The position numbers were made by a program, and so were the translations under genes. This document shows positions 10,516-28,250 of a stretch of DNA of 31,015 nt, piece by piece. Below the pieces are notes generated by a model that saw nothing but the letters and a program-made list of their open reading frames with translations, did not search any database and had not been told where the DNA came from. Position 1 is the stretch's first letter. Each line of letters opens with the position of its first letter. The DNA is taken from positions 1 through 31,015 of IMG/VR virus record IMGVR_UViG_3300025571_000015. The stretch is one strand, 5' to 3'. Source of the stretch: a virus (taxonomy: Duplodnaviria; Caudoviricetes).

Positions 10516-10707
10516 CTACCCCTCCTCGCTCGTCCTCTTCCTGGCGGCGGGCAGCTCGATCAGCAGCCCGGACGCGATCTGGTCGCGCGTCACGTCGGTG
10601 TCCGGCGCCTCGCAGCGCTCGCCGTGCGCGAGCGGGCGCCCGCCGTCGAGCGCCACGACCCGGCCGGCGACGCACTTCACGCGCACCGTCCTCTGGCTCT
10701 GGCTCAT
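10516..10707 (-). CDS. Small virion-associated protein (Mu gp38-like position)
   Basis: 63 aa, coupled to the upstream gene, just before the sheath; ...DQIASGLLIE ending. Confidence 0.6.
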   Translation of the reverse strand: MSQSQRTVRVKCVAGRVVALDGGRPLAHGERCEAPDTDVTRDQIASGLLIELPAARKRTSEEG

Positions 10708-11357
10708 CTGGTGATCTCCTCCACCGGCTCGGCGGTGGCGTCGGTGTCTTCCACGACCGGCAGGTCGCCGGGGTCGACCAGCTCGTCGTCGGGCGGCAGG
10801 TCCGGCAGCCTGGTGGTGTCCGACAGCACGTCCAGCAGGACGACGTCGAGCCGGTGGACCGACGAATGCCGGGACCGGTCCCCGTCCGGCGGCAGCTCGT
10901 TGTCGGCCTTGCCCTGCCAGCGCACCATCCCGACCCGGCCGTCGAGCCGGCCGGGCAGCCCGTCGATGAGCGCCTTCGTCGCAGCCAGCGCGAGCACCGC
11001 GGCGAGATCGCCGCCGACCTGCGGGTCGGAGGCGACGACGTAGGAGGCGACGATCAGCGGGAAGGTGGCGGCGTAGGCGCCGTCGCCGTCCTGGTATGCG
11101 ACCTCGACGGTGCCCGGTGCGGAGATGAGGATCGCCGGCTGCTGCTCCTCCGGCAGCCGCACCGTCGCCTCTCGCACCAGCACCGACCGGACCCGCTTGA
11201 CCCGGTCCCCCGGCCCGACGCCGGCGACCGGATGGCCGAGCGCGGCCTGCTGGCGGGCGACCTCGTCACTGTAGATCCCCGTGTACCGGCGGACGATCCG
11301 GGCCGCCTCCTGCTTGAGCGGCCACTCGGTCAGCAGCGGTCCCAGCGCCCGGGCCAT
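10704..11357 (-). CDS. Tail completion/terminator-like protein
   Basis: 217 aa between the gpG-like gene and the sheath; LPEEQQPAILISAPG motif. Function inferred from synteny. Confidence 0.6.
   Translation of the reverse strand: MARALGPLLTEWPLKQEAARIVRRYTGIYSDEVARQQAALGHPVAGVGPGDRVKRVRSVLVREATVRLPEEQQPAILISAPGTVEVAYQDGDGAYAATFPLIVASYVVASDPQVGGDLAAVLALAATKALIDGLPGRLDGRVGMVRWQGKADNELPPDGDRSRHSSVHRLDVVLLDVLSDTTRLPDLPPDDELVDPGDLPVVEDTDATAEPVEEITR
11305..11335. repeat. 31-bp perfect inverted repeat, copy 1 (partner 21339-21369)
   Basis: gcctcctgcttgagcggccactcggtcagca is the exact reverse complement of 21339-21369; it covers codons 8-18 (LLTEWPLKQEA) of the 10704-11357 gene. Confidence 0.95.
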
Positions 11358-14420: not shown

Positions 14421-15317
14421 GATGGTCGACTCCTCCTGGTAGTCTGGCCCCGCGGACGCGGCGGCCGTTGTTGACACGGCTCCCGCGCGCGACTGCTCGC
14501 GGGAGGTCCACACCGCCAACGCGGGCGCAGGCCGTCTGGCGGCGGCGGTGATCGGCACGTCCTGCTCGACCACCTCCGTCCAGTCGCCGAACGCGACCCT
14601 GTCGCCGTTGACGGTGAAGTCCAGTCGGTACAGGCGGCCGGCGGCATCGTCCTGCACCTTCAAGTACGGGTGCCCGTGGTCGTCGAAGCGCAGCGACCGG
14701 ATCCACAGGTCCAAATGGCTCCCGACGCCGTCGGGCGCGTCGATTCTGCCGTCGTCGAGCGCCTCGTAGAAGCGGCGACGCACCACGTCCTGGTCGAGGC
14801 CGGCAGCGATCCGGCCGGGGCGTGCGGGCATCCGGGCAATCACCTTCGTCGGTGTGGCGGCCGGCCCGTCGGCCAGCACCTCGCTCAGGTCGGGCAGCGT
14901 CGCGACGCCGGGCAGGTCGACGCCGAGCAGCGCCACCGCGGTGATGACGAGGTCATGCGTCTTACCGGTCGGGGACTGCCACGACTGGTAGCCCTCGATC
15001 GACCGGGACGGGTACGCCCACTCGATCGTCTCGGCCAGCCACCTGGGCACCATGAAGTCGCCGAGCAGCGTCTGGCCGTCCGCGGAGACGCGCATGTTGT
15101 CGACCCAGCCGAACGCCGGCTCGCCCCCGTGCGCGCCGGGGTCGAACGAGGCGGCCAGCCCGTCGATCTTGACCCGCGGCGCCTTGACCGCCGGGTCCCT
15201 CAGCGCCTCCACCGCGGCGACGAGGTCCTCCTCGGTGAACGTCGCCTCGCCGCGGGCGAGCCGGTAGGTGCCGGTCGCGCAGATCGGCACGTCCGGGATG
15301 CGCACCAGCTCGGCCAT
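13851..15317 (-). CDS. Mu gpI-like prohead protease with C-terminal scaffold
   Basis: ATG 15317 (TGATG overlap with portal); GEPAFGWV, LLGDF, YPSRSIE, ITAVALLGVDLPGVATL; C-terminal coiled coil and AIREGRIAPA. Confidence 0.85.
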   Translation of the reverse strand: MAELVRIPDVPICATGTYRLARGEATFTEEDLVAAVEALRDPAVKAPRVKIDGLAASFDPGAHGGEPAFGWVDNMRVSADGQTLLGDFMVPRWLAETIEWAYPSRSIEGYQSWQSPTGKTHDLVITAVALLGVDLPGVATLPDLSEVLADGPAATPTKVIARMPARPGRIAAGLDQDVVRRRFYEALDDGRIDAPDGVGSHLDLWIRSLRFDDHGHPYLKVQDDAAGRLYRLDFTVNGDRVAFGDWTEVVEQDVPITAAARRPAPALAVWTSREQSRAGAVSTTAAASAGPDYQEESTIMDVDTTLLRRHLGLPEDATEEQIRAALDTDPASQNRDVTASADTDGGESAHQPTGDEHGGEPGEGAESEPREPLPVAAQAEIARLSRELAELRAREAARAERETMERRDRIVAEAIREGRIAPADRDHYRRLLDADEDTGVALLQARARGSAVPVEAAGAGGQPVDGEGGISEDVYRAYMRANYGIEVS

Positions 15318-17530
15318 CAGGCAGCCACCTCCTGCTCGCTCTCGAGCACCCCGACCAGGACGCACCGGCAGCGGGCGCCGCCCTGGCAGTCGCGGTTGCC
15401 GCCGCCGCCCGGGAACTGCTGCAGCGCCTCGTCGAGCGACTCCCAGGTGGTGCCGTCCCAGTCGATGCACGGCTGGCAGGTGTTGGTGTCCAGCAGCGCC
15501 GACGCGTACACCTGCCGGTAGGGGGCGGCGTCGAGCGCGTGGGCGCGGCCGGCGTTGATCGCCCGGGACGCCATGCCGCCGGCGGTGTCGCGCGGCTGGG
15601 CGTCGGTCAGCTCGCCGATCGCGTCGGTGACGGTGGCGGCCACCTCCCTGCCGGGGGCGCCCGGGGCGGCCCTGGCGGTGGCGGCGTTGACCGCCGTCTC
15701 GACCAGCCCGCGAGCGAGCCTCGCGACCGCCGCCCTCGCCTCCAGCCCGGCGCGCTCCCTATAGTCCGGCGGGGCGATGTCGACGCTGCCGCCCTGGCGG
15801 GCGATCTCGCCCGCCACCTGGCCGGCGCCGACCGTGGCGGCCTCGTCCATGAGCCTGGCGAGCCTGTCGACGTCCATGCTCGCGGCGGCGGTGGCGGCGA
15901 CCGGGGCGAGAGCATCGGCGAGCGTCAGAGGCTCGACCGTGTCCATCTCGGCGATCGCGTCGACGATCGCGGCAGCGATCGCCTCCCGGTACCTGGCAAG
16001 CAGCACCGTGGCCGCGTCACGGACGGTGGTCCAGTCGTGCTCGAGCTCGGCGAAGTCGATTCTCGACTGCTCCTCCAGCCTGGTTGGCTGGCGGCGCAGC
16101 CTGCGGTCCGGCAGCGGCACGTCGGCGGCGGCGGCGACGGGACGGCGGGCGCGTCCCAGCGTGGGAGCGGAGGTCGAGAGACGCCCCCGCCGTCCGTTCG
16201 CCGCGACGGGCGCCAGCCTCTCAACGGCGCCCGAAGGTTCAGCCGGAGGCGGCGGGCCCTCCAGCTCGTTCAGGCCGGATATCGCGCGGGCCTCGTCGGC
16301 GGACACGATGCCGTAGTACGTCGCCAGCCCCATCCGCTGGAGCGCCAGCCCGGCTCGCTCGGCGCGCTCGAGCGGGCCGCCACCGTCCTCGTGCTCGTCG
16401 CGCTGCCACACGATCTTCGGGCACGGCGCGTCCGGCCCGAAGTTCCAGGCGACCCAGCGCTTGACGAGCTGCTCGTTGAGGACGTCGCAGCGCCAGTTGA
16501 CGAGCACGTCCAGGTACATGTCGAGCAGGTTCTTGTGCGTCTCGGCCAGGGCGCGGGAGCCGTACGACTGGCCGACGGTCTGCAGCACCTGGCCGCCCAG
16601 CGCGACCGCCATCTCCTCGTTGTGGAAGCGCGCGGAGTCGATCGGCGACGAGGTCGAGCCCGACACGCCGGCGAGCCCGAACCTGGCGCCGTGCGGCACG
16701 ACGACGTTCGTGTCCTCGCCGGCCGCGAGCCGCGACAGCAGCTCGCTGAACCGGTCGATGTCGGCCCTCGACGCCCCCTCGGGCGCCTCCCCCCACGGGA
16801 CGCCCATCGCGTTGCGGTCCTGCTTGACCCCGTCGATCCGGACCATCATGTCCTTCGCCAGCCAGGGCCTGTACAGCGGCCGCAGCATCGACCGGCCGCG
16901 CGGGTCGCCGGGCTCGCCGCCCCACGTGTAGACGACGAGATGGTCGGCGCGGAGCCTCGCCGGCTCCCACTCGCCGACGTCCTGGTCGATCCACAGCAGC
17001 CGCCCCTGCTTGTCGATGTGCCAGTCGCGCAGCGTCCTCGCCGGCCGGGGCGCCAGGTCCCTCAGCCGCCACAGCCCCTGCTCGTCGATCTCGCCGACGA
17101 TCTCGAAGACCGCGTGCCCGTCGCGCAGCGCCCACATCTCGCGGGTCATGTGCCGGCGGTGGCTGAAGCGCAGCGGGTCGCGTTCGTCGGGGGCCGGCTC
17201 GATCACCAGCCGCTCCCCGTCCATCCGGCCGAGCGGCAGGTCGAGATCGTCGGCCAGCAGCGCCGCCACCTCCGGGTCGGCCGCCCGGGGCACGAGCGCG
17301 ACCCGGTAGCGGTGGGGCGGGAGGGTGATGAGCTGCCAGAGCGCCCAGACGCGCGGGTCGTCGAGCATCGCCGCATAGGTGGTCAGCGACCTCGGCCACT
17401 GCAGCGCCGGGACGCGCTCGTCGGGCGGCGGGAGGACACCCCAGCCGGGTATCCTCCAGCGGCCCGACCAGACGACGTCCGGCCGGACGGTTCCTTGCTC
17501 CCTGGTCGGGGCTCTGGCGAGCGCGCTCAC
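15317..17530 (-). CDS. Portal protein (Mu gp29/DUF935-like) fused to gpF-like minor head domain
   Basis: GDPRGRSMLRPLYRPW, DRNAMGVP, SYGSRALAETH, NEQLVKRWVAWNFG portal motifs; C-terminal SALLDTNTCQPC...DG...CRC gpF motif. Confidence 0.88.
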   Translation of the reverse strand: MSALARAPTREQGTVRPDVVWSGRWRIPGWGVLPPPDERVPALQWPRSLTTYAAMLDDPRVWALWQLITLPPHRYRVALVPRAADPEVAALLADDLDLPLGRMDGERLVIEPAPDERDPLRFSHRRHMTREMWALRDGHAVFEIVGEIDEQGLWRLRDLAPRPARTLRDWHIDKQGRLLWIDQDVGEWEPARLRADHLVVYTWGGEPGDPRGRSMLRPLYRPWLAKDMMVRIDGVKQDRNAMGVPWGEAPEGASRADIDRFSELLSRLAAGEDTNVVVPHGARFGLAGVSGSTSSPIDSARFHNEEMAVALGGQVLQTVGQSYGSRALAETHKNLLDMYLDVLVNWRCDVLNEQLVKRWVAWNFGPDAPCPKIVWQRDEHEDGGGPLERAERAGLALQRMGLATYYGIVSADEARAISGLNELEGPPPPAEPSGAVERLAPVAANGRRGRLSTSAPTLGRARRPVAAAADVPLPDRRLRRQPTRLEEQSRIDFAELEHDWTTVRDAATVLLARYREAIAAAIVDAIAEMDTVEPLTLADALAPVAATAAASMDVDRLARLMDEAATVGAGQVAGEIARQGGSVDIAPPDYRERAGLEARAAVARLARGLVETAVNAATARAAPGAPGREVAATVTDAIGELTDAQPRDTAGGMASRAINAGRAHALDAAPYRQVYASALLDTNTCQPCIDWDGTTWESLDEALQQFPGGGGNRDCQGGARCRCVLVGVLESEQEVAA

Positions 17531-17561
17531 CTAGCCGTCTCCCCCTCCAGATGGACGGCGG

Positions 17562-17837
17562 TCACTGCGGCAGCCGCTCCCGGTCGCTGGTCGGGTCCGG
17601 CACGGTCGCCGGGTTCGTCGCCACCTCCACCCCGCCGGCCAGCTCGGTGATGTAGGCGAAGATGACGCCGATCGCGACAAGCGCCGCAGTCACCTTCGCC
17701 GTCGTCTCCCCGCCCAACGACAGGCCGAACGGCTCGACCAGCGCGGCGACCGTGGCGACGAGCGACGCGGCAGTGACGGGGGCGCGCAGCCGGACGATGT
17801 CGGCGGCAAGGTGGCGCAGGAAGACGGTGAGGCTCAT
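17562..17837 (-). CDS. Holin
   Basis: 91 aa with two hydrophobic helices and a charged C-tail; ATGA-coupled to the lysozyme gene. Confidence 0.7.
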   Translation of the reverse strand: MSLTVFLRHLAADIVRLRAPVTAASLVATVAALVEPFGLSLGGETTAKVTAALVAIGVIFAYITELAGGVEVATNPATVPDPTSDRERLPQ

Positions 17838-18589
17838 CGGCACATCTCCTTGTCGAGGGCGCGTCTGCGGAGGGCGCGGAAGCGGACAGCACGCCGCCGC
17901 TGGTCCCAGCCGGACCGGCGGGCGGCGACCTGGACACGACGGGCCTGGGCGCGCAGCCGGCGGCACAGCAGAGCCGGCGCCGGCCTGCCCGCCTGGCGGC
18001 GGCGGTCGAAGCGCCCGATCAGCGTCCTCTCCAGCCTGCTGAAGCCGGCCATCTGCGGGGCCGGGTCGGGGGTCAGGAACAGCTCGCGTTCGGCCTGGCG
18101 GCGGCGGACGAGGCCGGGCAGCACGCGGCCGCCGGCCTTCGTCCAGCGCAGCAGCTCGTCGGCGGCGCGGCGCCATTGGCGGGCGCGGAGCGCGCGGCCG
18201 ATGCCGGTCGAGGCGGCGACGCCGCCGGTCCCGACGTTGTAGACGAAGCTGACGATCGCGTCGAACCGGTGCTGGGAGCGCAAGTCGAGCGCGCGGACGG
18301 TCGGCTCGTAGCGGCTGGCGAGGGTGCGGCGCAGGTGCTGGTCGCACTGGGCTTCGGTCGCGACCGGCGGCAACGACAGCAGCTCGACACCGGTCGCCCC
18401 ATAGCACTGGGTCGGCACCCCGACCGGGTCCAGATAGCGGGCCGGGTAGTAGCCCTCGAAGTGCTTGATGAGCGCGATGCCCCTCGCGCCGGTGTGGGCG
18501 GGCGCCGTCGAGGCGGCGGCCGGGGGGACCGCGGCCGTGCACGCGAAGAACTCGGCCAGCAGCGTGACGATCGCGGCCCGGCGGGTCAT
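17834..18589 (-). CDS. GH24 phage lysozyme with N-terminal signal-like peptide
   Basis: E-X8-D-X5-T triad (FEGYYPARYLDPVGVPT), FDAIVSFVYNVG, LPGLVRRRQAERELF; start ATG 18589. Confidence 0.92.
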   Translation of the reverse strand: MTRRAAIVTLLAEFFACTAAVPPAAASTAPAHTGARGIALIKHFEGYYPARYLDPVGVPTQCYGATGVELLSLPPVATEAQCDQHLRRTLASRYEPTVRALDLRSQHRFDAIVSFVYNVGTGGVAASTGIGRALRARQWRRAADELLRWTKAGGRVLPGLVRRRQAERELFLTPDPAPQMAGFSRLERTLIGRFDRRRQAGRPAPALLCRRLRAQARRVQVAARRSGWDQRRRAVRFRALRRRALDKEMCR

Positions 18590-19362
18590 GCGAGCCCCCG
18601 CCGCTGCAGGACCGGCTTCGGGCTGCTGCGCAGATTCACGTGGTGGGCTTCCCGCCCGTCGGCGTAGGGGCGGAAGGCGTCGTAGCCGAGCCCGACAAGC
18701 ACGGTCCGCAGCCGTGGGGCGTCCGTGCAGTCGAGGCCGAGCTGCCACCACGCCAGCGGCCGGCCGACCGGGCCCGGGTACGCAACCGCGTCGGAGCGGA
18801 GCTCGTGCGTCGAGCGGCCGGGCGGGTTCGCCGGGTTCGCCCACGGCAGCCGGGCCAGCCAGGCCGCGTACAGCGCCGCCTGCGAGAGCTTGCCGTACCG
18901 CTCGGCGACCCCCTTGCGCCGGTCGGCGCTGGTGAGCGTCCCCTGCCAGCCGTGGCGGCGGGCGTCCTCGAGCATCAGCGCGTGCCCGCGGAAGACCGGG
19001 GTGCCGTCGAACGCGACCGTCTCGTTCAGCCGCAGCCGGCGCCGCTGCTTGGCGCGCAGGACGGCGGCGGGGGTGCGGGTGTGCGGCGCCCGCACGTTGA
19101 GCTGGGCGGCGACCGTCGGCGGGTGCTTGGCGGGCAGCCCGATCGCCCAGCGCACCTCCCGCCAGGCTGCCAGCGTCTCGTCATCGAAGACGCCGTCCAC
19201 CGTGATGCTGCGCCTCGTGAGCCTGCGCAGATGGGCGGGCACGCGGGCGAGCCGGGCGTTCAGGCCCTGCTGGAAGCGGCGGACGTCCTCTCCGCGATGC
19301 CCACGGCGCAGCCGCCGGTGCGGGCGGCCGTTGTGGTGCCACGAGCGGTCGAGGCTGGCCAT
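18586..19362 (-). CDS. Endolysin: peptidoglycan-binding domain + M15-type Zn peptidase
   Basis: LRRGHRGEDVRRFQ...DGVFDDET (PG-binding); TSADR...Q..LY...ANPPGRSTH...LD...EAHH (M15/VanY-like). Confidence 0.78.
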   Translation of the reverse strand: MASLDRSWHHNGRPHRRLRRGHRGEDVRRFQQGLNARLARVPAHLRRLTRRSITVDGVFDDETLAAWREVRWAIGLPAKHPPTVAAQLNVRAPHTRTPAAVLRAKQRRRLRLNETVAFDGTPVFRGHALMLEDARRHGWQGTLTSADRRKGVAERYGKLSQAALYAAWLARLPWANPANPPGRSTHELRSDAVAYPGPVGRPLAWWQLGLDCTDAPRLRTVLVGLGYDAFRPYADGREAHHVNLRSSPKPVLQRRGLA

Positions 19363-19405
19363 CGCCCGTGATCGTCCGTGCGCCAGCCCCCGGCGCCTAG
19401 GATTT

Positions 19406-19459
19406 CGGCCAGGTGCGGGGCCATCAGGCCGGCCAGGTGTCCGACCGGGCCGGTATCCT
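19406..19459 (+). promoter_or_regulatory. Divergent control region: two CGGCCAGGTG boxes and TATCCT -10
   Basis: 10-bp direct repeats at 19406-19415 and 19430-19439; TATCCT at 19454-19459, 8 nt before ATG 19468. Confidence 0.45.
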
Positions 19460-19467
19460 CACCGGCG

Positions 19468-19710
19468 ATGGTGCTGTCGATGACGCTGAGGGAGGCGCGC
19501 GAGCGGGCCCAGCTGTCGCAGGAGCGGCTGGCCGCCTACGCGTGGGTGAGCGTCCGCACCATCCGGCGGATCGAGCAGGGGCTGGTCGTGCCGAACATGT
19601 CGACGCGGCGGGCGATCGTGGACGCGCTCGCCCGGCGGTTGAGGCTGCCGGAGGGGGAGAGGCTCGCGATCGCGTGGCCCGCCCCGGCGAGGCTCAGACA
19701 GGCGGCGTGA
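19468..19710 (+). CDS. XRE-family helix-turn-helix regulator
   Basis: LREARERAQLSQERLAAYAWVSVRTIRRIEQG...P is a classic HTH_3 pattern; alternative start 19480. Confidence 0.9.
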   Translation: MVLSMTLREARERAQLSQERLAAYAWVSVRTIRRIEQGLVVPNMSTRRAIVDALARRLRLPEGERLAIAWPAPARLRQAA

Positions 19711-19712
19711 GC

Positions 19713-19738
19713 ACCAGGCCGGGCGGCCCGGCCGTGGT
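19713..19738. terminator. GC hairpin between convergent XRE and terL genes
   Basis: acca-ggccggg-cgg-cccggcc-g-tggt; no U-tract, which is common in high-GC Actinobacteria. Confidence 0.5.
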
Positions 19739-21249
19739 CACCAGACGTTCGGGTCGTGCCGGATGCGCAGCGCCTCGCTCACCCGCCCCCGTCCGCTGCG
19801 CAGCCTTCCCCCGCCATGGTGCTCGTCCGGCGTGGTCGTGATCGCCATCACGACCGCGTCCCCCAGGTCGGGGGAGCGGCCGAGCCGCTTGCGCACGTCC
19901 TGCTTCTTCTCAACCGCGATCCGGCCCGCCGCGTCGAGCTCATGCCTCGGGGTGGACAGGTCGACGGCCAGATCGTCGGCGAGGTCGCCCTCGTCGGGGC
20001 CGGGCAGCCGCCACAAGCCGTCCCGGAGCGCTTCCCGGGCGGTCCACCACGCCTCCGCCTTGCGGTTGGTGAACCGGGCGGGGCGGCGTGCTCTGACGCC
20101 GCCGCGGAACCCGACGACGCGGCGGCCGCGCGCCCGGAGCATGTCGCCGATCGGGCCGCCGAGCCCGTCCTCGTCCACGACCGCCTTCCAGTTCGCCGGC
20201 CGGTCGCCGAGCAGCCGGTCGACGTGCTCGACGACGCGGGCGGTGTCCGACTCGGCGAGCAGACCGAGGATCCTCACCTCGCCCCGGTAGGCCTCGACGA
20301 TGGCGGTCATGTCCGCCCCGTCGCGGGCGGGGTCGACGGCGATGACGCCGCCCAGCGGCCCGTCCGGGTTGGGGTCGACGCCGTGCTCGAGCCGGCGGGC
20401 GCGGGCGACGATCCAGCCGGGGATGACCGCGTTCTCCGCTCCCGCCGCGAACCGGCCGCGTACCTTCGCCTGGTAGAGCGCCGAGTCCTCGCCCCAGCGT
20501 TCCCTGCGCTCCTGCACCCACGTCGGGGACAGCAGCAGCGCCCGCAGCTCGTCCGGTACCGGCTCCCCGGTGAAGTTCGGCGACGCCAGCCCGTCGAGGC
20601 CGATCACGTGCCAGCCCTTGCCCTCCCTGGACTCGGGGTTGCAGACGGCGGCGAAGTGGCTCTCGGGGTCGTCGGGGTTGCCGATCGCGAGCAGCCGGGC
20701 GTGCTCGTTGGTGACGAGCGCGTCGGCGGCGTCCCACAGCGCCCGCGGCACACCGCACGCCTCATCGATCACGACGAGCACGTGCTTGGCGTGGATACCC
20801 TGGAATGCGGCCTGGTCGTGGTCGGCGGGCTTGCGGCCGTACCCGATCAGCCGCTCACCGTGGAAGAGGCGGTTGTCGCCGAGCAGCCGCAGCCGGCCGT
20901 CGAGGCCGGCGTCGCGGATCGCGGCGCGCAGCTCGCGGCCGATGATCGCGTCAACCTGCGGGTAGGTGGGGGCGGTCCAGACGACGAACACCTCGTCGGG
21001 GGGGTGGACGTCGCACCACCAGGCGATGATGTTCGCGGCGATCCACGACTTGCCCATGTCGTGAGCGGCGTGGACCGCGACGTAGCGGTGGTCGCGGACG
21101 GCCTCGGCGATCTCGCGCTGCTTGGACCACAGGTGCGCGCCACGACGGGCGGTCGACCAGCCGACCGGGTCGTCCTGGTACGGGTCAGGTCTGGGCCACA
21201 GCAGGTCGACGACGGCCTGGGCGGTGCCCCGCGGGGCGAGGGCGGTCAT
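19738..21249 (-). CDS. terL: Terminase large subunit
   Basis: Walker A-like AAHDMGKS, Walker B VVIDEA, AIGNP coupling motif, nuclease AVDPA and SPDLGDA. An in-frame upstream GTG at 21405 is possible. Confidence 0.95.
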   Translation of the reverse strand: MTALAPRGTAQAVVDLLWPRPDPYQDDPVGWSTARRGAHLWSKQREIAEAVRDHRYVAVHAAHDMGKSWIAANIIAWWCDVHPPDEVFVVWTAPTYPQVDAIIGRELRAAIRDAGLDGRLRLLGDNRLFHGERLIGYGRKPADHDQAAFQGIHAKHVLVVIDEACGVPRALWDAADALVTNEHARLLAIGNPDDPESHFAAVCNPESREGKGWHVIGLDGLASPNFTGEPVPDELRALLLSPTWVQERRERWGEDSALYQAKVRGRFAAGAENAVIPGWIVARARRLEHGVDPNPDGPLGGVIAVDPARDGADMTAIVEAYRGEVRILGLLAESDTARVVEHVDRLLGDRPANWKAVVDEDGLGGPIGDMLRARGRRVVGFRGGVRARRPARFTNRKAEAWWTAREALRDGLWRLPGPDEGDLADDLAVDLSTPRHELDAAGRIAVEKKQDVRKRLGRSPDLGDAVVMAITTTPDEHHGGGRLRSGRGRVSEALRIRHDPNVW

Positions 21250-21338
21250 CGCACCCCCCGCCGGGCCGCTTGGGGGGTCGGCCACGCCCCCGGCCGTTGC
21301 AGCGGCGCGGGGGCAACATTGACCCCCACATTCTCCCA

Positions 21339-21369
21339 TGCTGACCGAGTGGCCGCTCAAGCAGGAGGC
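21339..21369. repeat. 31-bp perfect inverted repeat, copy 2 (partner 11305-11335)
   Basis: tgctgaccgagtggccgctcaagcaggaggc; extends to 33/34 identity over 21339-21372. Confidence 0.95.
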
Positions 21370-21438
21370 CGCGAGTTTTGCAGGGGGTTTTGCAACCGCG
21401 GTCACGCCGCCTCCCGTCCAAAACTCGCGGCCTCCTGC
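21361..21438. repeat. 20-bp perfect inverted repeat with 38-nt loop
   Basis: gcaggaggccgcgagttttg (21361-21380) and caaaactcgcggcctcctgc (21419-21438). Confidence 0.95.
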
Positions 21439-21460
21439 GCGGTCACGCCGCCTCCCGTCC
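21397..21460. repeat. 23-bp direct repeat duplicating the terS 3' end
   Basis: cgcggtcacgccgcctcccgtcc at 21397-21419 and 21438-21460. Confidence 0.95.
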
Positions 21461-22114
21461 CTCGATCGCCTCGCCGCCCTGCTCCAGCGCCGCCAGGTGC
21501 CGGCGCACGACCTCCGGCGCCCGCGGATCGTTCCGCACCCCAAGCTCGTCCAGGATCGCGCCGATCGTGACGGCGAGCATGCCGCCCATCTGCTCGGCCA
21601 GCCGCTGCTGACGCTCCTCGATCCCGACGTCATGGCAGGTCTTCGCCACCGCCCGCAGCCGGTCGCGCTCCTCCCCCAGCATCCGCGTCAGCACATGCGG
21701 CTCGACGCGCGGGTAGGAGTCCCCGCCGCCGCCGACCGGCCCGAACAGCTCGCCGCGGTCGAGCTCGGCGACCTCGCCGGCGAGCCACCGCACGATCCCA
21801 TGCGCGCGCCACAGCTCCTCGAGCAGCGCGTCGCGCGGGTCGACTCTGACCGGCAGCCCGTAGACGCGAGCGGCCCGCTCAGCCTCCAGCCGCTGCGCGC
21901 GGGCGACATGGTTGCGCGTCGCGCCGCCGTGCCGCTTGCACGGCCCGGTTCTGTGCGGGGTGCCGTGCCCGGCTGGGAGCCGGCAGCGTCTGCCCGACCC
22001 GTCACGCTTGACCGCCCCGCACCACCTCGGGTCAATCGGCGGCTCCACCTCCGGCTCATGACCTGCGGTGCTGTCGGCGGGCTTCATGACGTGATCGGGG
22101 TCCTGGGATGCCAT
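21443..22114 (-). CDS. terS: Terminase small subunit (HGGxSTG-like Zn-binding N-terminus)
   Basis: CGAVKR...CRLPAGHGTPH...CKRHGGAT followed by a helical region; lies upstream of terL. Confidence 0.75.
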   Translation of the reverse strand: MASQDPDHVMKPADSTAGHEPEVEPPIDPRWCGAVKRDGSGRRCRLPAGHGTPHRTGPCKRHGGATRNHVARAQRLEAERAARVYGLPVRVDPRDALLEELWRAHGIVRWLAGEVAELDRGELFGPVGGGGDSYPRVEPHVLTRMLGEERDRLRAVAKTCHDVGIEERQQRLAEQMGGMLAVTIGAILDELGVRNDPRAPEVVRRHLAALEQGGEAIEGREAA

Positions 22115-22129
22115 GGGGTCAGCGGCACC

Positions 22130-22528
22130 TCATGGCCGCACCACCAGGCTGCAGAGGTCCTGAGCCCACCCGAGCTGCCTGGACTCCCACTCTGCGTCGG
22201 CGCGGTCCCTACGGAGCGCCGCGCGGATCTCGCCCTCGACGATGGATCGGATGCCCCTCGGATCTCGGTCGAAGTGGCCCTCGGCCATCGTGAGCGTGAT
22301 CGTGACGGGGCCTCCGTCTTCCCAGTTCACCTCGGCGCGGATCGTGCCTTCAGGGTCCCTCTGCGTCCGGTGCCGAAGCACCTCGTCGAGAGTGTCTGCG
22401 AGGTAGCGTGCTGCGCGACGTGGCATGTGCGCCCCGAGCGTCACGCGGGCGCTGACGGTCTTGTCGGCCTCGTGCAGGCGCTCGACGTGGACTCTGGTGA
22501 TCGCTGCCTCGTGCTGTTGATCGCTCAT
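22130..22528 (-). CDS. Hypothetical phage protein
   Basis: 132 aa; RBS GAAGGGGAG; ATGA-coupled. Confidence 0.65.
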   Translation of the reverse strand: MSDQQHEAAITRVHVERLHEADKTVSARVTLGAHMPRRAARYLADTLDEVLRHRTQRDPEGTIRAEVNWEDGGPVTITLTMAEGHFDRDPRGIRSIVEGEIRAALRRDRADAEWESRQLGWAQDLCSLVVRP

Positions 22529-22770
22529 GCTCTGGATTCTCCCCTTCTTGTCGGTGCCCGTTCAAGTTCGTCGGCGAGGGTGGCGGCGGCTGTGTCGACG
22601 CGCGACCCGCTGATCTCGCGGAGTCCGACGAACGCCCGGTACCAGGCGGCGCCGTCCCGCAGCCGCTGTCTGGTGGTCTGGACGGCGAGGCGGAAGCGGC
22701 GGCCGGGGTGTTCGAGCAGGACGTCGAGGCCGCGGGCGTGGGCGGCCCGGAACAGGCGCTCGAGGCTCAC
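22525..22770 (-). CDS. Hypothetical phage protein
   Basis: 81 aa; GGAGG-GTGA coupling to the glycosyltransferase stop. Confidence 0.6.
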   Translation of the reverse strand: MSLERLFRAAHARGLDVLLEHPGRRFRLAVQTTRQRLRDGAAWYRAFVGLREISGSRVDTAAATLADELERAPTRRGESRA

Positions 22771-23402
22771 GCCGCCTCCCTCATCTCCCGTGTCTGGCCG
22801 GGGAAGGTGGTGGAACGGGCGGCCCGGTGCGGGGTGTGCCGCGGGATCGTGGACCGGCCCGTCTGGTGCTGCACCGGGTTCGGCGCCACGCCCAGCAGAG
22901 GCCGTCCGCGAGCGATCAGGTGGTCGCGCAGCACGACGTCGAACCCGCCCTGCGGGTCCTTGACCGTGGCGAGTTCGCTAGTGACGCGGTGCGAGATCAC
23001 GACGGCCAGGCTGCCGATCAGCCGCCTCGCGGCGATGAGCGGGAACACCACCGGCCTCTTCGCCCACGCCGACGGCGAGAGGCGCGCCGGGTAGTGGCGG
23101 TCGCCGGGCAGGTACAGCCAACAGGCCGTGTCGGCCTCCTCGGCCATGACAGCAGCGGCCTCGACGGCAGGGCTCATCGTGGCCTCGTCGATGAGCAGGT
23201 CGTCCTCGAGCAGCAGCACGGGGCCGCGGCCGTCGATCGCGGCGAGGCAGTGGCGGACGTGCGCGTGGTTGGACCGCTCCGGGTCGTGCTGGACGCTCAC
23301 CTCCGGTGAGATGCCGGCGGCCGCGAGCCCCTTGAGCGTGAGTTCGCGTTCGCGCCGCCGCTCGGGGACGGAGATCATCACCGCTCGCAGCCTCCCGGTC
23401 AC
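22767..23402 (-). CDS. GT-A fold glycosyltransferase-like protein
   Basis: AVMISVPERR start, SNHAH...C, PVLLLEDDLL (DxD-like), GSLAVVI, FDVVL, PNPVQH; RBS AAGGAGG. Confidence 0.7.
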   Translation of the reverse strand: MTGRLRAVMISVPERRRERELTLKGLAAAGISPEVSVQHDPERSNHAHVRHCLAAIDGRGPVLLLEDDLLIDEATMSPAVEAAAVMAEEADTACWLYLPGDRHYPARLSPSAWAKRPVVFPLIAARRLIGSLAVVISHRVTSELATVKDPQGGFDVVLRDHLIARGRPLLGVAPNPVQHQTGRSTIPRHTPHRAARSTTFPGQTREMREAA

Positions 23403-23429
23403 GCTGCCTCCTTGAGCGCCGCGTGGTCG

Positions 23430-23615
23430 TCAGCGACCCCGCAGGGCCTGCGGCCGGGTCGGGATGCCATGGCTGTGCAGCGCCTGCTTGACCCGGCTCG
23501 GGGAGCAGCCGAGCTGGCCGGCGATCTCGGCGATCGGCCGGCCCTCGACCGTGTACCTGGCGGTCAGCCAGCTCGGGTCCCTGAGCTGTGGGTAGCGCCA
23601 CTGGGCGCCGCTCAT
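23430..23615 (-). CDS. Small helix-turn-helix protein
   Basis: LRDPSWLTARYTVEGRPIAEIAGQLGCSPSRVKQALHSHGIPTR; ATGA-coupled to the cysH-like gene. Confidence 0.8.
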   Translation of the reverse strand: MSGAQWRYPQLRDPSWLTARYTVEGRPIAEIAGQLGCSPSRVKQALHSHGIPTRPQALRGR

Positions 23616-24373
23616 CGGGCGTTCACCATGTCGCCGAGCACGCTCTGCGGCGGGTCGGTGAACGCCGCGAGGCCCGGGGTCACCGCGCAGCGCTCCTCCC
23701 ACCAGTCGGGGAAGTGGACCGGGCCCGGCTGCGCCCACGGCGCCCGCTGGTTCAGCCCGCCGCCGGGCATGAACAGGCACGGGTGCGACCGCTCCTGCCA
23801 GCCCGCCAGCCGGTAGAGCGGATGCACCGGCGCCCTGTAGAGCGTGATCGTGTCGAGCACGTCCTGCTCGGTCCAGTGGAGCATCGGCAGGCAGATCAGC
23901 GGCCTCCCCCAGTCCCTGCCGGCGACGTACTGGTTGCGGTGGCGGGCGTACATCTTCCCGCGCCGCTGCCGGGTGACCGACTCGGCCGACCGGATCGCCA
24001 AGATCTGCTTGTCGACCCCGTGCCGGGCGAGCAGGTCGCGCATCAGGTGCCGGTCGTGCCGCTCACGGGCGGCGACGAGCCTGGCGACACGGCGGCCGCC
24101 GCCGTCGCGCAGATCCCTCAGGTGGCCCGACCAGGACAGCACCTCGAAGGTGAGGTGCGGCGCCCGATCCCGCCACTGCTCCAGCAGCTGCGGGGTGCCG
24201 GGGTAGCCGTCCTCGCCGTGCGAGCCGAGCACGACCACCCCGCTTCTCCACACCTCGGCCGCGACGGCGAGCAGCGCGGTCGAGTCCTTCCCCGCCGACC
24301 AGGCCAGGACCGCCCTGCCCTCGAGCCGTTCGAGCTCGGACTGGAGCGCCGCCAGCTGGACCGCGAGCATCAC
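23612..24373 (-). CDS. cysH: CysH/PAPS-reductase-like PP-loop protein of type IV-B CRISPR-Cas
   Basis: AWSAGKDS PP-loop, IRSAESVTR, PMLHWTEQDV...VHPLY; start overlaps the csf3 stop (TAGTG). Confidence 0.88.
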   Translation of the reverse strand: MMLAVQLAALQSELERLEGRAVLAWSAGKDSTALLAVAAEVWRSGVVVLGSHGEDGYPGTPQLLEQWRDRAPHLTFEVLSWSGHLRDLRDGGGRRVARLVAARERHDRHLMRDLLARHGVDKQILAIRSAESVTRQRRGKMYARHRNQYVAGRDWGRPLICLPMLHWTEQDVLDTITLYRAPVHPLYRLAGWQERSHPCLFMPGGGLNQRAPWAQPGPVHFPDWWEERCAVTPGLAAFTDPPQSVLGDMVNAR

Positions 24374-25029
24374 TAGGCGGCCTCCAGCAGCGGAGCGCCC
24401 GGCTCGATCGCCGGCCGCCACCACGGCCGGTACCACTGCGGCGGGTCGACCCCGGTCGGCCGGCCGTGCGGGTGCGGGATCGGCCGGCGGGCGATCCCGC
24501 CCCACGACCGCCACCTGTAGCCGCTGTCGTCGTGCTCGATCTCCCACCGCACGACCTGCCCGTACCCCTGGCTGCGCTTCTTCCCGATCGCTGTCACCTG
24601 CCGCAGCAGCTTCCTCAGGTCGCTCGCTTGGCCTTCGGCGCGGGCCTCCCACACCCGGTACGGCCACAGCGTCAGCGCCTCGTCGTGCGAGCGGCGCGGC
24701 CCGTGCCCGACCGCGACCTGCCGGTCGGCGATCAGGAAGTCGTACTCCAGCGCCGGGCGCAGCCGCCACCGCGTCTCCGCCCGCACCGGGTCATCAACCC
24801 CGGCCGGCCACAGGCACGAGCACGCCCACATCCCGCCCTCCCGCCGCAGCGGCAGCGACACCCTCTCCAGCGGGTCGGACGACGTGTGGCCGATGATCGG
24901 CCGGGGGCCGCGCAGCAGCACGACCGCCCACGCCAGCAGCGCGTCCAGGTGCACGTACGGGTTGGGGCCGGCGACAGGGGCGCCGGTGTAGCAGCGGATC
25001 ACCAGCGGCGACCCCTCCCTGACGCTCAC
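24373..25029 (-). CDS. csf3: Type IV Cas5-like RAMP Csf3
   Basis: HLDALLAWA, WACS, and G-rich loop IGKKRSQGYGQVVRWEI, RRPIP, PPQW; GTG 25029 overlaps the csf2 stop. Confidence 0.9.
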   Translation of the reverse strand: MSVREGSPLVIRCYTGAPVAGPNPYVHLDALLAWAVVLLRGPRPIIGHTSSDPLERVSLPLRREGGMWACSCLWPAGVDDPVRAETRWRLRPALEYDFLIADRQVAVGHGPRRSHDEALTLWPYRVWEARAEGQASDLRKLLRQVTAIGKKRSQGYGQVVRWEIEHDDSGYRWRSWGGIARRPIPHPHGRPTGVDPPQWYRPWWRPAIEPGAPLLEAA

Positions 25030-25901
25030 ACCAACGCCCCCTGCGCCGGCTTCCTGACCGCGAGGAAGTCGCGGGCCCGGTCCGCATGCTCGACCACGTG
25101 CTGCTGGTAGGCGTCGATCGCGTCGGTCTGGGTCCTGGCCCACTGCTCGAGGTCCCAACGGAACCGGCCGTGGCCGATCGCCCCCCGGCCACCGAGCTTC
25201 TGCCACTCCGAGCAGGTGGCGATCGCGTCCGCGAGGCAGCCGGCCAGGACCGGGTTGCGGGACTGGAGCACCAGCCCGTGCAGCAGCCGGGTGCCGGGGA
25301 TCAGCGCCTCGAACTGGTAGCGCATCTGCACATCGCTCGACTCACCCTCGAGCATGTCGGTCCGGTCGTCACGGCGCGAGTAGGAGACCTCGGTGAGCAG
25401 GTCGAACACCGAGTGGACCGGGCCGGTCTCGTAGGCGGGGTGGCCGGCGTGGCCGGGCAGGTCCTGCATCTCCCGGCAGACGGGCTCGCCGCGCCACACC
25501 TCCAGCCGGCCGCCCAGCACGCGGGCGCCGAAGGAGCAGCCGAACAGCTCCAGGATCGGCAGGGTGCTGCGCAGCTCCATCAGGTCGTCCACCCGGTGCG
25601 CGTAGTCGCTGCCCTCGAGGTAGCCGCCGGAGAACAGCAGGTAGAAGCTCCTGGACGGCAGCTCCCGGTCCTGGACCCCGAGCAGGTCGCAGAGGCGCAG
25701 CGCCGCCGCCCGCCGCAGCATCCCCCGAATCGCGTTACCGCTGTAGATGGGCACGTCGAGGATCTCCCCGTCGCCGGTGACGATCGGCTCGCGGCGGAAC
25801 CGCTGCATGATCTCCACCTTCTCGTCCGAGTGGATCAGCGGGCTGGTGACGGTGATCACCGACGGCACCTTGATGTGCCTGTCAGGCAGGACGGTCAGCA
25901 C
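25026..25901 (-). CDS. csf2: Type IV Cas7-like backbone RAMP Csf2
   Basis: TSPLIH, VPIYSGNAIRGMLRR, LLFSGG, LELFG, QMRYQFEALIPGTRL, LGGRGAIGHG. Confidence 0.93.
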   Translation of the reverse strand: MLTVLPDRHIKVPSVITVTSPLIHSDEKVEIMQRFRREPIVTGDGEILDVPIYSGNAIRGMLRRAAALRLCDLLGVQDRELPSRSFYLLFSGGYLEGSDYAHRVDDLMELRSTLPILELFGCSFGARVLGGRLEVWRGEPVCREMQDLPGHAGHPAYETGPVHSVFDLLTEVSYSRRDDRTDMLEGESSDVQMRYQFEALIPGTRLLHGLVLQSRNPVLAGCLADAIATCSEWQKLGGRGAIGHGRFRWDLEQWARTQTDAIDAYQQHVVEHADRARDFLAVRKPAQGALV

Positions 25902-25903
25902 GG

Positions 25904-26263
25904 TCAGCTCTCCCTTCTGGCGTTGCGCGCGGCGTCACGCTCGGAGCGCACGAGGACGGACAGGGCGTTGCTCCGGCGGCGGACGACCCGCAGCACCTCC
26001 CGCTGCTCGCTCTCCGGCAGCGACAGCAGGAACAGGAACGCGTCACCGGGCGTGTGGGGGATCCTGAATCGGCGGGCGACCTGGGCGAGGTACTCGCCGC
26101 CGTCGGGGGCGTAGGCGGCCGACTGGAGCCGGTTCGCGAACCGGTCCCAGTGGTCGCGGCTGTCGAGCACGTCGGCGCGACGAACCGCCTCGTAGGTGGC
26201 GCGCGCCACATCGAGCGCGCGCTGCTCGACCTGGTCGAGCGCCGGGGTCGGCGTGACAGACAT
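25904..26263 (-). CDS. cas11: Type IV-B small subunit Cas11
   Basis: 119-aa all-helical protein (HWDRFANRLQSAA...LRVVRRRSNALSVLVR) between csf1 and csf2, the IV-B diagnostic position. Confidence 0.8.
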   Translation of the reverse strand: MSVTPTPALDQVEQRALDVARATYEAVRRADVLDSRDHWDRFANRLQSAAYAPDGGEYLAQVARRFRIPHTPGDAFLFLLSLPESEQREVLRVVRRRSNALSVLVRSERDAARNARRES

Positions 26264-26273
26264 GGCTAGTCGC

Positions 26274-26942
26274 TCACTCCTCGTGTTGGGCGACCCAGAC
26301 GGCGAGTCGCAGGGTTGGGCTCGACCGATGCCGGTCGAGCAGGGTTTGCAGAGCGTCCGCGTCGGCGACGCCGAGCCGGTTGTAGGCGGTCGCGTCGAGC
26401 CGGCCGGTCTCGAGCGTCGACTTCGGCACCCCCCGCCGGTAGGCGGTCTCGACGGCGTCGGCAAGCTCGACCCAGACGGGCATCGGGACGGTCGCGTCCT
26501 GCGCGTCGATCGCCGCGCACATGTAGCCAGCCCTGGGCGTCGGCGCCCTGAACGCGATGTGCTTCTTGCCGCCGTCCGCGACCGACACCGCCAGATCGGG
26601 GTCACGCAGCCAGCCGGCGATCCTGCGCTTGTGCGCCTTCGTCGCCCACATGGAGCGGCGGCCGTCGGTCGCCAGCGACAGCAGCGTCCACCTCATCGGC
26701 TTGCCGCTCGGCCCGAGATCGGGGCAGCGGCCCGTGACGAGGAGATGACAGCCCGGGCAGAGCGCCCCCTCGCCGGGGAAGGCGTGCTGGTCGTAGGCGG
26801 ACCAGTTGCCGCCGGGCCTCCACCTGTGCCGGGGCGCGACGTGGCCGCACAGCTCGCACGGGCCCGGGGCGGTGTCCGGCTCGGGCAGGCCGCCGTTGAA
26901 GCCGGCGGCGAACAGCGCGGAGAACGTCGTGTCCGCGCTCAC
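26274..26942 (-). CDS. csf1: Type IV large subunit Csf1 (Cas8-like)
   Basis: 222 aa from GTG 26942; Zn finger CELC...CPGC; SVADGGKKHIAFRAP; first gene of the cas block. Confidence 0.85.
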   Translation of the reverse strand: MSADTTFSALFAAGFNGGLPEPDTAPGPCELCGHVAPRHRWRPGGNWSAYDQHAFPGEGALCPGCHLLVTGRCPDLGPSGKPMRWTLLSLATDGRRSMWATKAHKRRIAGWLRDPDLAVSVADGGKKHIAFRAPTPRAGYMCAAIDAQDATVPMPVWVELADAVETAYRRGVPKSTLETGRLDATAYNRLGVADADALQTLLDRHRSSPTLRLAVWVAQHEE

Positions 26943-27736
26943 CGCTCCTCCTCCCGTGCACCAGGGACCGGCATCACCTCGACGGTTCGGAGCCCGCCGC
27001 ACCCGAACCCTCTGCACACCCCGGACTGGTGCTCCCGCCGGTGTGGCGGGTCCGTGACGCAGACCGCGCCGCCGCACTCCACGCAGACATCGATCAGCCA
27101 ACGGCCCTGCGGGAGCGGGTCCGTCGCGTCGCGTGGCGGCCGCCCCTCCCCGGCCGTGGGGGACGGGGACGCCGCGAGGGAGCCGGCAGCAGCCCGCTCC
27201 AGCTCAGCCGCAAGCGCCACGTCCCTGCCCTCCGTCTGCTCCGGGAGGGTGCGGAGGTGACGTGCGGTGCGTCCGGCGAGGTCGCGCAGCGCCTCCCACT
27301 CGCGGTCGTCCGTGGGCGACGGCGCGGCGACAAGATGCACCGGCTCCTCGTCCTCGAACGGCCAGCCCGGCGCCTCGCCACCCTCGGTCAGCCGGTCCCA
27401 AAACGAGCGCCACAGGGACGTGCGCGGCTCGCGCCGCACCTCGTCCATCGCCTCGGCCAGATCCACCGCGATCTCCTCGGCCGTGAACGAGGTGGGCTCG
27501 CGCATCAGGTGGGCGGCCCTCGTCAGCGCCTCGCGCGTGTCCGTGCCCTCCGGGGGCGTGGACGTGTCCTGCACCGGCCCGACAGCCAGGCGGTTACCTG
27601 CCGCCGACGGGTCCGGGCACCCCAAGTGCGAGCACCCGACGTGGCCGCCATCGTAGAGCCGCAGCGACTCGCGGTGGCACGCCGGACAGCGGCCAGCGAC
27701 CCTCGGGTAGCGCTCGCGCGTGTGCGTCTCAGCCAT
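26939..27736 (-). CDS. Mosaic hypothetical protein with N- and C-terminal Cys/Zn motifs
   Basis: VAGRCPACHRESL...GGHVGCSHLGCPDPSAA (actinophage DUF6085-like) and CVECGG...CRGFGC; coupled to csf1. Confidence 0.7.
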   Translation of the reverse strand: MAETHTRERYPRVAGRCPACHRESLRLYDGGHVGCSHLGCPDPSAAGNRLAVGPVQDTSTPPEGTDTREALTRAAHLMREPTSFTAEEIAVDLAEAMDEVRREPRTSLWRSFWDRLTEGGEAPGWPFEDEEPVHLVAAPSPTDDREWEALRDLAGRTARHLRTLPEQTEGRDVALAAELERAAAGSLAASPSPTAGEGRPPRDATDPLPQGRWLIDVCVECGGAVCVTDPPHRREHQSGVCRGFGCGGLRTVEVMPVPGAREEER

Positions 27737-28088: not shown

Positions 28089-28212
28089 CTCCTCTCGATG
28101 CTCGTTTTCACGCACGACAGCCCAGCCGTCACCGCGCCGCCTCCGCACCCTCTCGGTGGCCGTGCCCCGGGCGATCGGCAGTCGCGCCGATTCACGGCGA
28201 GGCTTCCCCGTC

Positions 28213-28250
28213 ATGATACGGGATCTTCTTCGCCGTGTACACTCCCGGCC
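28213..28250. promoter_or_regulatory. Overlapping divergent promoters (leftward cas/ter operon; rightward leaderless integrase)
   Basis: Minus strand: TGTACA (28241-28236)-17 nt-TATCAT (28218-28213). Plus strand: TACACT (28238-28243), 7 nt before GTG 28251. Confidence 0.6.

What the first reader, a model, noticed from the sequence alone, without database searches (positions are those of the whole stretch)
21339..21372. Spacer-sized 31-nt perfect antisense copy of a tail gene, downstream of the cas operon: candidate guide RNA
Seen: 21339-21369 is the exact reverse complement of 11305-11335, about 10 kb away in codons 8-18 of the tail-completion gene (33/34 when extended). The next differences are synonymous (GAG GCC GCG vs GAG GCG GCC). 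On the leftward transcript that also carries the csf genes, the segment is antisense to that late mRNA. It is preceded by GTTGCAAAACCCCCTGCAAAAC and followed 21 nt later by GTTGCCCCCGCGCCGCTGCAAC. Both are 22 nt, start with GTTGC and end in AAC, loosely like CRISPR repeat ends. Inference: a solitary degenerate guide for the IV-B complex that targets self (timing of tail expression) or related phages, or a plain trans-antisense RNA.
Basis: partly seen in the sequence, partly recalled or inferred. Interest (0 to 1): 0.9.

Follow-up and report, generated by a model that had tools for sequence, protein, structure and literature searches.

The report
Self-antisense insert in type IV-B phage
A phage that carries a guide-less type IV-B CRISPR operon has an exact 31-base reversed copy of its own tail gene inside a small insertion that a close relative lacks; it is likely a DNA-copying scar whose RNA is predicted to be partly masked by a fold-back arm, but it would be a directly testable candidate for the unknown type IV-B guide.

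Summary
The 31-nt inverted match is exact, far beyond chance, and present in runs of other studies, so it is not a misassembly. The IV-B operon is real (csf1, cas11, csf2, csf3, cysH-like). The 'CRISPR-like repeats' are not supported: they share 11 of 22 bases (chance level), stand 57 nt apart, and the downstream one is part of a hairpin found between early genes of many mycobacteriophages without csf2. The segment lies in a 193-nt insert between putative terS and terL; one relative's contig joins these genes with no insert, another carries different sequence there. Of 28 other type IV records, 2 hold a spacer-sized copy of a virion gene (controls 0 of 7), none with these flanks. Best reading: a templated insertion at a variable junction, then a local template switch that muzzles the antisense RNA (0.48). 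A repeat-less IV-B guide (0.2) or plain antisense regulator (0.14) is not excluded; no RNA evidence was obtainable.

The parts
21339..21369 (-). 31-nt segment, antisense to the tail-terminator-like gene on the leftward strand
11305..11335 (-). source/target: nt 23-53 (codons 8-18) of ORF 11357-10704
10704..11357 (-). target gene, 217 aa, between neck1 and sheath; predicted gpU-like tail terminator
   Evidence: no Pfam/PHROG hit; Atlas structure rows named Phage_tail_U
21250..21442 (.). 193-nt intergenic insert between putative terS and terL; absent from a relative
   Evidence: (run X9: 21234 joined to 21475 with 43 letters between)
21419..21438 (-). 20-nt fold-back arm, exact reverse complement of 21361-21380 (11 nt of 5' flank plus first 9 nt of the antisense segment)
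   Evidence: (z -6.2)
21397..21419 (-). second copy of a 23-nt direct repeat of the putative terS stop region
21438..21460 (-). first copy of the 23-nt direct repeat, holding the putative terS stop codon
21242..21248 (-). 7-nt TGACCGC at the terL start, repeated at 21398-21404 and 21439-21445; likely duplicated at the insertion point
21443..22114 (-). putative terminase small subunit (named from position only)
   Evidence: phrog_3678, unknown function; 158 homologs
19738..21249 (-). terminase large subunit
26274..27101 (-). csf1 (start codon uncertain)
   Evidence: PADLOC typeIV_Cas8 E 7.7e-9
25904..26260 (-). type IV cas11
   Evidence: E 7.7e-10
25026..25901 (-). csf2 (Cas7)
   Evidence: E 1.9e-54
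24373..25029 (-). csf3 (Cas5)
   Evidence: E 4.6e-31
23612..24376 (-). cysH-like (PAPS reductase family)

Best explanation
The 31-nt copy lies in a 193-nt insert at a variable junction between the two terminase genes and is likely a templated insertion (a piece of the phage's own tail gene captured during replication or break repair), to which a later local template switch likely added a 20-nt arm predicted to fold back over its 5' end. Shown: the exact match, the arm, the 23-nt duplication, the generic hairpin, and a relative without the insert. Inferred: (1) the ancestral state is terS stop overlapping terL start by 4 nt; (2) the insert brought its own intercistronic hairpin and a new start region for terL, duplicating 7 nt; (3) the arm arose after the 31-mer, because it copies across the 31-mer's junction; (4) read-through RNA from terS would carry a 31-bp antisense to the tail-terminator mRNA, and the arm would double the cost of opening it, so the arm would act as a suppressor that makes the insert tolerable. 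On this reading the csf complex has no specific link to the segment.
For: Relative X9 joins 21234 to 21475 with 43 letters between, equal to 15 nt of terL + 32 nt of terS - 4; relative X23 matches to 21269 and then runs on unlike for 378 nt; 8 more distant terS relatives show either close coupling or other genes at this junction. Direct repeat + inverted arm with 1-2 nt shared at each junction is the pattern of a short-range template switch (pattern from general knowledge, PMC7954356 seen as listing only). Flanks are not repeats. The hairpin occurs 30/30 in L110 and in 36 of the 40 listed phage records (77 in all, 74 Mycobacterium, duplicates included), while only 1 of 50,697 phage records has csf2. 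Opening energy of the 31 nt is 35.0 kcal/mol with the arm and 17.2 without. 26 of 28 other type IV records have no virion-gene piece copied elsewhere.
Against: Two rare events in 193 nt, one of them spacer-sized, in a phage with an orphan Cas7/Cas5 complex is a coincidence on this reading. No change is seen inside the insert in X2, X4, X5 or X7 where covered, although X4, X5 and X7 differ in the terminase genes (too few differences for power). Two other type IV records (G019 36/36, G003 27/28) hold similar copies against 0 of 7 controls (not significant). No microhomology explaining capture of the 31-mer was found. The X9 evidence is one contig at depth 5, its 43 letters were not printed, and whether X9 or X23 carry csf genes is unknown.
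Confidence: 0.48

Rival explanations
1. Repeat-less guide for the IV-B complex. The 20-bp stem would act as an in-cis anti-tag cut by RNase III (replacing Cas6) or as a mask removed by an internal start; the CUGCAA hairpin would protect the 3' end; Csf1-3/Cas11 would bind the tail-terminator mRNA or DNA of this phage or of kin that share the site.
For: Intact IV-B operon co-oriented upstream with no cas6 or array found. Length 31-36 nt; 21318-21374 is 57 nt, and recombinant IV-B complex held 55-60-nt RNAs (PMC7937560, passage). The arm covers exactly the would-be 5' handle and seed. Depth over 21328-21371 only, in X9 and X23, suggests that kin keep the target. Another csf2 clade has true arrays right after csf3, with repeats starting GTTGCA or similar. 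G019 and G003 analogues.
Against: No repeats, no shared flank with any of 192 loci or 5 plasmid IV-B loci beyond the hairpin in non-csf phages; 2.2 kb from the operon; insert absent in a close relative; perfect self-target inside an essential gene; array-bearing loci are in a different csf2 clade; the region without the arm folds no better than shuffles (z -0.7 and 0.1).
Confidence: 0.2
2. Cas-independent antisense regulator kept by selection: the terS-terL RNA would pair with the tail-terminator mRNA (31 bp) and trigger RNase III cleavage, delaying tail completion relative to head genes, with the arm tuning its strength.
For: Duplex energy -71.7 kcal/mol; still favourable after opening both partners; 22 nt remain outside the arm; site is near the 5' end of the CDS.
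Against: Relative lacks it; site starts at nt 23, past the usual initiation footprint (general knowledge); no promoter or terminator consensus in the insert; a perfect in-frame DNA copy needs no selection to be complementary.
Confidence: 0.14
3. Orphan host CRISPR spacer: a prespacer or array fragment of the host, matching this phage family, was mis-integrated or captured by recombination and has lost or never had its repeats.
For: Spacer-like length; G019 holds captured repeat units flanked by 29- and 34-nt duplications and a 36-nt tail-gene copy, its array spacers being 34-37 nt. The extra synonymous codons could come from a sister allele.
Against: No repeat remnant or repeat-length duplication around the 31-mer; X9 and X23 show no depth at 21372 onward, so no sister allele extending the match was seen; host unknown.
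Confidence: 0.1
4. Inversion switch: the two 31-bp inverted copies would let the 10-kb terL-to-neck block flip, turning head genes off while the tail gene restarts from the in-frame ATG at 21338.
For: Plus-strand frame at 21338 reads MLTEWPLKQEAA, in frame with the tail gene; homolog P0033 starts at the matching position; a large serine recombinase is encoded.
Against: Dyad symmetry of the 31-mer is reached by 12.6% of random 31-mers; any mismatch at the first base of that CTG codon gives a start codon; no invertase found in 36 kb seen; both assemblies show one orientation; the arm is unexplained.
Confidence: 0.05
5. Assembly artefact.
For: No contig has 31 or more letters on both sides of the 31-mer; L015 may come from the same sample.
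Against: Left junction covered in X2 and X4, right junction in X2, X5, X7; X2 and X7 contigs stop at 21368 or start at 21340, as a 31-mer graph would at a true 31-nt repeat; X4, X5, X7 are other studies (2022, 2023, 2025) with strain differences; X5 and X7 bridge the arm and duplication.
Confidence: 0.03

Closest known systems
Type IV-B CRISPR-Cas (Mycobacterium sp. JS623 Csf complex; PMC7937560, PMC8175902, passages)
   Same: csf1-cas11-csf2-csf3 plus cysH-like, no cas6, no array; native RNA unknown
   Different: Here on a myophage, upstream of the terminase genes, with a self-matching segment nearby; csf2 is in a separate clade from the plasmid systems
Fuxivirus IV-B mini-array and Chiyouvirus self-targeting spacers (PMC10541130, passages)
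   Same: Virus-encoded IV-B with a candidate guide; virus segments with 100% self match of unclear role
   Different: Those have recognisable repeats; Fuxivirus spacer has no target; here there is a target but no repeats
Viral CRISPR mini-arrays and single repeat units (PMC11656645, passages)
   Same: Phage-borne spacer-sized sequence matching related phages
   Different: Those repeats equal the host's repeats; flanks here are unlike each other and one is a generic hairpin
Regulatory cr-like RNAs (CreA, cas-repressing mini-arrays; 10.1101/2023.03.03.530964, passages)
   Same: Self-directed, one flank may be divergent
   Different: They pair partially with promoters and keep repeat similarity; this pairs fully with coding sequence
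Short-range template switch / templated insertion (general knowledge; PMC7954356 listing only)
   Same: Inverted copy plus adjacent duplication with 1-2 nt junction overlap; distant templated piece
   Different: Here the inverted copy happens to mask an antisense segment in a Cas-encoding phage

Membership tests
Type IV-B CRISPR-Cas (operon) | csf1, cas11, csf2, csf3 | tested here: met
   PADLOC
Type IV-B CRISPR-Cas (operon) | cysH-like ancillary gene | tested here: met
   PF01507 above cut-off, PHROG
Type IV-B CRISPR-Cas (operon) | no cas6/csf5, dinG, cas10, cas1-2 or array | tested here: inconclusive
   none among 34 ORFs scanned with PADLOC and no array in the window or L015 1-4886; about 9.7 kb of the 45.5-kb assembly was not seen
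CRISPR mini-array / crRNA | two similar repeats flanking the spacer | tested here: not met
   11/22 identity, 99% of free-boundary null pairs reach it
CRISPR mini-array / crRNA | repeat-to-repeat distance of one spacer | tested here: not met
   57 nt, against 34-38 nt in arrays of related type IV loci
CRISPR mini-array / crRNA | spacer-length match to a mobile-element sequence | tested here: met
   31/31 self match
CRISPR mini-array / crRNA | repeat equal to a host CRISPR repeat or known family | tested here: inconclusive
   no Rfam match above gathering score; host unknown and host genomes not searchable
CRISPR mini-array / crRNA | variable spacers between conserved flanks in relatives | tested here: not met
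   4 near-identical strains invariant; X9 lacks the insert, X23 differs after 21269; few relatives reachable
CRISPR mini-array / crRNA | processed RNA bound by the effector complex | not testable with these tools
   only assembled contigs were served
Trans-acting antisense RNA | complementarity to a target mRNA on the transcribed strand | tested here: met
   transcription itself not shown
Trans-acting antisense RNA | own promoter, terminator and conservation | tested here: not met
   none by consensus scan (sigma-70 type only); absent in X9
Template-switch insertion | inverted local copy with adjacent duplication, absent from ancestral allele | tested here: met
Invertase site (gix/hix type, recalled) | internal dyad symmetry and cognate invertase | tested here: not met

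The most novel reading that the evidence does not exclude
This is the first native type IV-B guide: a repeat-less RNA, matured without Cas6 by an in-cis anti-tag stem and capped by a borrowed phage hairpin, that programs the Csf complex (and CysH-like enzyme) against the tail-terminator gene of the phage itself and of kin, so that type IV-B phages can gain guides by templated insertion instead of Cas1-Cas2 adaptation.
Probability: 0.17. Interest if true: 0.92.

Novelty: new variant of a known kind. Interest (0 to 1): 0.47.

Why it matters
The RNA that type IV-B complexes use and their target are open questions (PMC7937560, PMC8175902, PMC11656645, passages). My searches (open-licence PMC and bioRxiv only) listed no paper describing a native IV-B guide with a target. 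This locus gives one complex, one candidate RNA and one perfect target in a single genome, so one pull-down or reporter decides it. If it is only a scar, it shows that spacer-sized self matches with CRISPR-looking flanks can arise without CRISPR. The array-bearing csf2 clade found on the way (L026, L018, L039) may be the better entry to IV-B guides.

Tried and rejected
Single-protein scans of viral contigs with csf2 and putative terS: no relatives. Scan with the target-protein alignment: 1 locus at 35%. Upstream flank pattern in viral contigs: 0 hits. Rfam: only sub-threshold hairpin matches. Promoter/terminator scan: nothing in the insert. Plasmid blastn of the insert: weak matches only; an 85% 46-nt match to a Cas4 gene of phage LoneWolf (E 4e-3) taken as codon-level chance, not examined further. 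Two 151-nt records of run X22 matching 21278-21317 first suggested a CRISPR repeat; set aside because each shows one copy and the hairpin is generic, though a host spacer to this site is not excluded. Run X13 did not cover the locus and X23's RNA contigs cannot show strand or ends. Spacers of four arrays near csf2 matched nothing else among the loci held. Dyad test negative. The profile search of protein representatives never ran, so closer csf2 relatives remain without DNA context; NCBIfam was not scanned. Earlier scan findings: none. No paper on the CUGCAA hairpin was listed. Supplements were not read.

Full report
Setting. The window is a whole virus record of 31,015 bases, 73% G+C: a contractile-tailed phage with terminase, portal, capsid, neck, sheath, tube and baseplate genes, a large serine recombinase and a cytosine methylase. 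A 45.5-kb assembly (L015) is identical over 15029-31015; I saw 4.9 kb of its extra part, not the other 9.7 kb. Terminase relatives point to an actinobacterial host; the host is not known.

Observation. The match is exact (31/31), in codons 8-18 of ORF 11357-10704. The next distant inverted match is 17 nt, and 100 Markov simulations gave at most 22 nt. The target has no family hit but its predicted structure resembles gpU-like tail terminators. PADLOC confirms csf1, cas11, csf2 and csf3, followed by a PAPS-reductase-family gene: the IV-B layout as defined in PMC8175902 (passages). The segment is 2.2 kb further on, in the only large gap (193 nt) of a run of tightly packed leftward ORFs, between putative terS (named from position) and terL.

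Is it real? Contigs of four runs from four studies were laid on 20900-21900. The left junction is covered in X2 and X4, the right in X2, X5 and X7, with no differences listed inside the insert, while X4, X5 and X7 differ at 4 to 7 listed places in the terminase genes. X2 may share a campaign with the source run; X4, X5 and X7 are from 2022, 2023 and 2025.

The flanks are not CRISPR repeats. They share 11 of 22 positions; 5% of fixed random pairs and 99% of free-boundary pairs do as well (one search used a window shifted by one base and is superseded on this point). They are 57 nt apart, against 34-38 nt spacers in arrays near related csf2 genes. The downstream flank overlaps a bulged hairpin with a CUGCAA loop (21286-21315) that occurs 30/30 in viral contig L110 and at about 90% in 36 of the 40 listed records (77 matched, 74 Mycobacterium phages, duplicates included). 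In the three I opened and in L110 it lies between a stop codon and the next gene of the early operon, on the same strand sense as here. Only 1 of 50,697 phage records has csf2, so the hairpin is not tied to type IV. The upstream flank had no hit in viral contigs. Rfam gave nothing above threshold.

Reading leftward: terS end with stop (23-nt repeat, copy 1), 20-nt arm, repeat copy 2, upstream flank, 31-nt antisense, 21 nt, hairpin, terL start. The arm is the exact complement of 21361-21380, that is 11 nt of flank and the first 9 antisense bases; the stem is predicted at z -6.2 and raises the opening cost of the 31 nt from 17.2 to 35.0 kcal/mol against a duplex of -71.7. Since the arm copies across the segment's junction, it arose later (inference). 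A 7-nt word at the terL start recurs in both repeats, as expected if the insert split an overlapping stop/start.

Relatives. In run X9 one contig (depth 5, 84-92% alike) joins 21234 to 21475 with 43 letters between; 15 nt of terL plus 32 nt of terS minus a 4-nt overlap is 43, so this relative likely has no insert; the letters were not printed. In X23 a contig matches terL and 20 nt of the insert, then continues unlike for 378 nt. Both show depth over 21328-21371 only, which suggests that they keep the target site. X13 did not cover the locus. Whether these relatives carry csf genes could not be checked. Eight distant terS relatives show coupling or other genes at this junction; none of the 10 records has csf2.

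Other type IV phages. I fetched 28 csf2-bearing records of 14-224 kb; left out were nine short ones (G008, G009, G012, G013, G017, G021, G022, G036, G038) and G033, the same prophage as G019; only some were checked for cysH-like genes. Nine of 28 have a 27-45-nt match of at least 95% at 1 kb or more; 0 of 7 controls do. By context seven look like element ends, paralogous coding stretches, operators or duplicated gene starts (G001, G002 and SPI1 judged from the match lists alone). Two are pieces of virion genes in an unrelated place: G019, 36/36 inverted, from a structural gene into a small early ORF, and G003, 27/28 direct, from a portal/head gene to just upstream of an integrase. Two of 28 against 0 of 7 proves nothing. 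None shares flanks with this locus, nor do five plasmid IV-B loci or SPI1. A separate csf2 clade has true arrays directly after csf3, in L026 followed by a cysH-like gene; in this phage csf3 and cysH-like overlap and there is no array.

Mechanism. Best supported (0.48): a templated insertion at a variable junction, then a template switch whose arm would dampen a self-antisense RNA; origin and suppression are inferred, the parts are shown. The guide reading (0.2) survives without repeats: the arm covers what would be the 5' handle and seed, could be an RNase III site as in tracrRNA-repeat duplexes (recalled), and the 57-nt span fits the 55-60-nt RNAs on recombinant IV-B complex (PMC7937560, passages). 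Against it stand the absence in a relative, the borrowed hairpin, the distance from the operon and the lack of a pattern in other records. Plain antisense (0.14), orphan host spacer (0.10), inversion switch (0.05; dyad not significant) and artefact (0.03) complete the list.

Known systems. Closest are the Fuxivirus IV-B mini-array and Chiyouvirus self-targeting spacers (PMC10541130, passages), viral mini-arrays (PMC11656645, passages) and regulatory cr-like RNAs (10.1101/2023.03.03.530964, passages); all keep recognisable repeats. The operon is a member of IV-B; the segment fails membership as a mini-array, which lowers 'it is a crRNA', less so 'it works like one'. Searches listed no native IV-B guide with a target; subscription papers and supplements were not seen.

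Verdict. A real, unusual, lineage-specific element; more likely a scar than a guide, but cheap to test against a long-standing question. Interest 0.47.

Noticed in passing
L026:4724-5120; L018:1822-2370; L039:1754-2160: True CRISPR arrays (36-37-nt repeats, 34-37-nt spacers) directly after csf3 in one csf2 clade; in L026 a cysH-like gene follows the array and a terS-like ORF lies 1.2 kb further on. Array-bearing IV-B-like loci may be the best route to native IV-B guides.
   Followed up: partly
L074:10196-10747 (G004): Array of 37-nt repeats with 7 spacers about 4.6 kb downstream of csf2 in a complete virus record; no spacer target among loci held.
   Followed up: partly
L102:4697-4796 and 7223-7470 (G019): A single CRISPR repeat and a three-repeat piece, each flanked by a 29- or 34-nt duplication of phage sequence, as if captured by recombination at a spacer.
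   Followed up: partly
L102:6542-6577 and L103:8203-8238 (G019): Exact 36-nt inverted copy of a virion structural gene inside a small early ORF, without repeats; closest analogue of this finding.
   Followed up: partly
L097:12310-12338 and 15980-16008 (G016): csf-cysH operon flanked by a 29-nt direct repeat equal to the start of terS, as if the cassette inserted at the terS start.
   Followed up: partly
L072:7524-7551 and 1481-1508 (G003): 27/28 direct copy of portal/head gene sequence just upstream of an integrase gene.
   Followed up: partly
L090:9525-9566 and L088:15395-15436 (G011): Identical 42-nt unit, one copy behind a promoter-like site and before a terminator-like hairpin, upstream of the csf operon; possible duplicated small RNA.
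   Followed up: no
window 21286-21315; L110:1725-1754; L119-L121 near 2001-2041: Conserved bulged hairpin with CUGCAA loop between early genes of many mycobacteriophages; no Rfam family and no paper listed.
   Followed up: partly
L049:5169-5237 and 7202-7270 (also L050): About 69 nt spanning the csf2 start duplicated 2 kb upstream.
   Followed up: no
window 27726-27742 and 28072-28088: Two consecutive genes begin with the same 17 nt; another local duplication in this genome.
   Followed up: no
window 19378-19710 (+): HTH gene on the opposite strand between terL and the lysis genes, interrupting the late operon.
   Followed up: no
window 21278-21317 (run X22): Two 151-nt records match 36/36 and 36/40 with unlike flanks: other phages' hairpins or host spacers.
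   Followed up: no
L015:2744-2774: Tandem 5-nt repeat (six units) in the replication region of the longer assembly.
   Followed up: no
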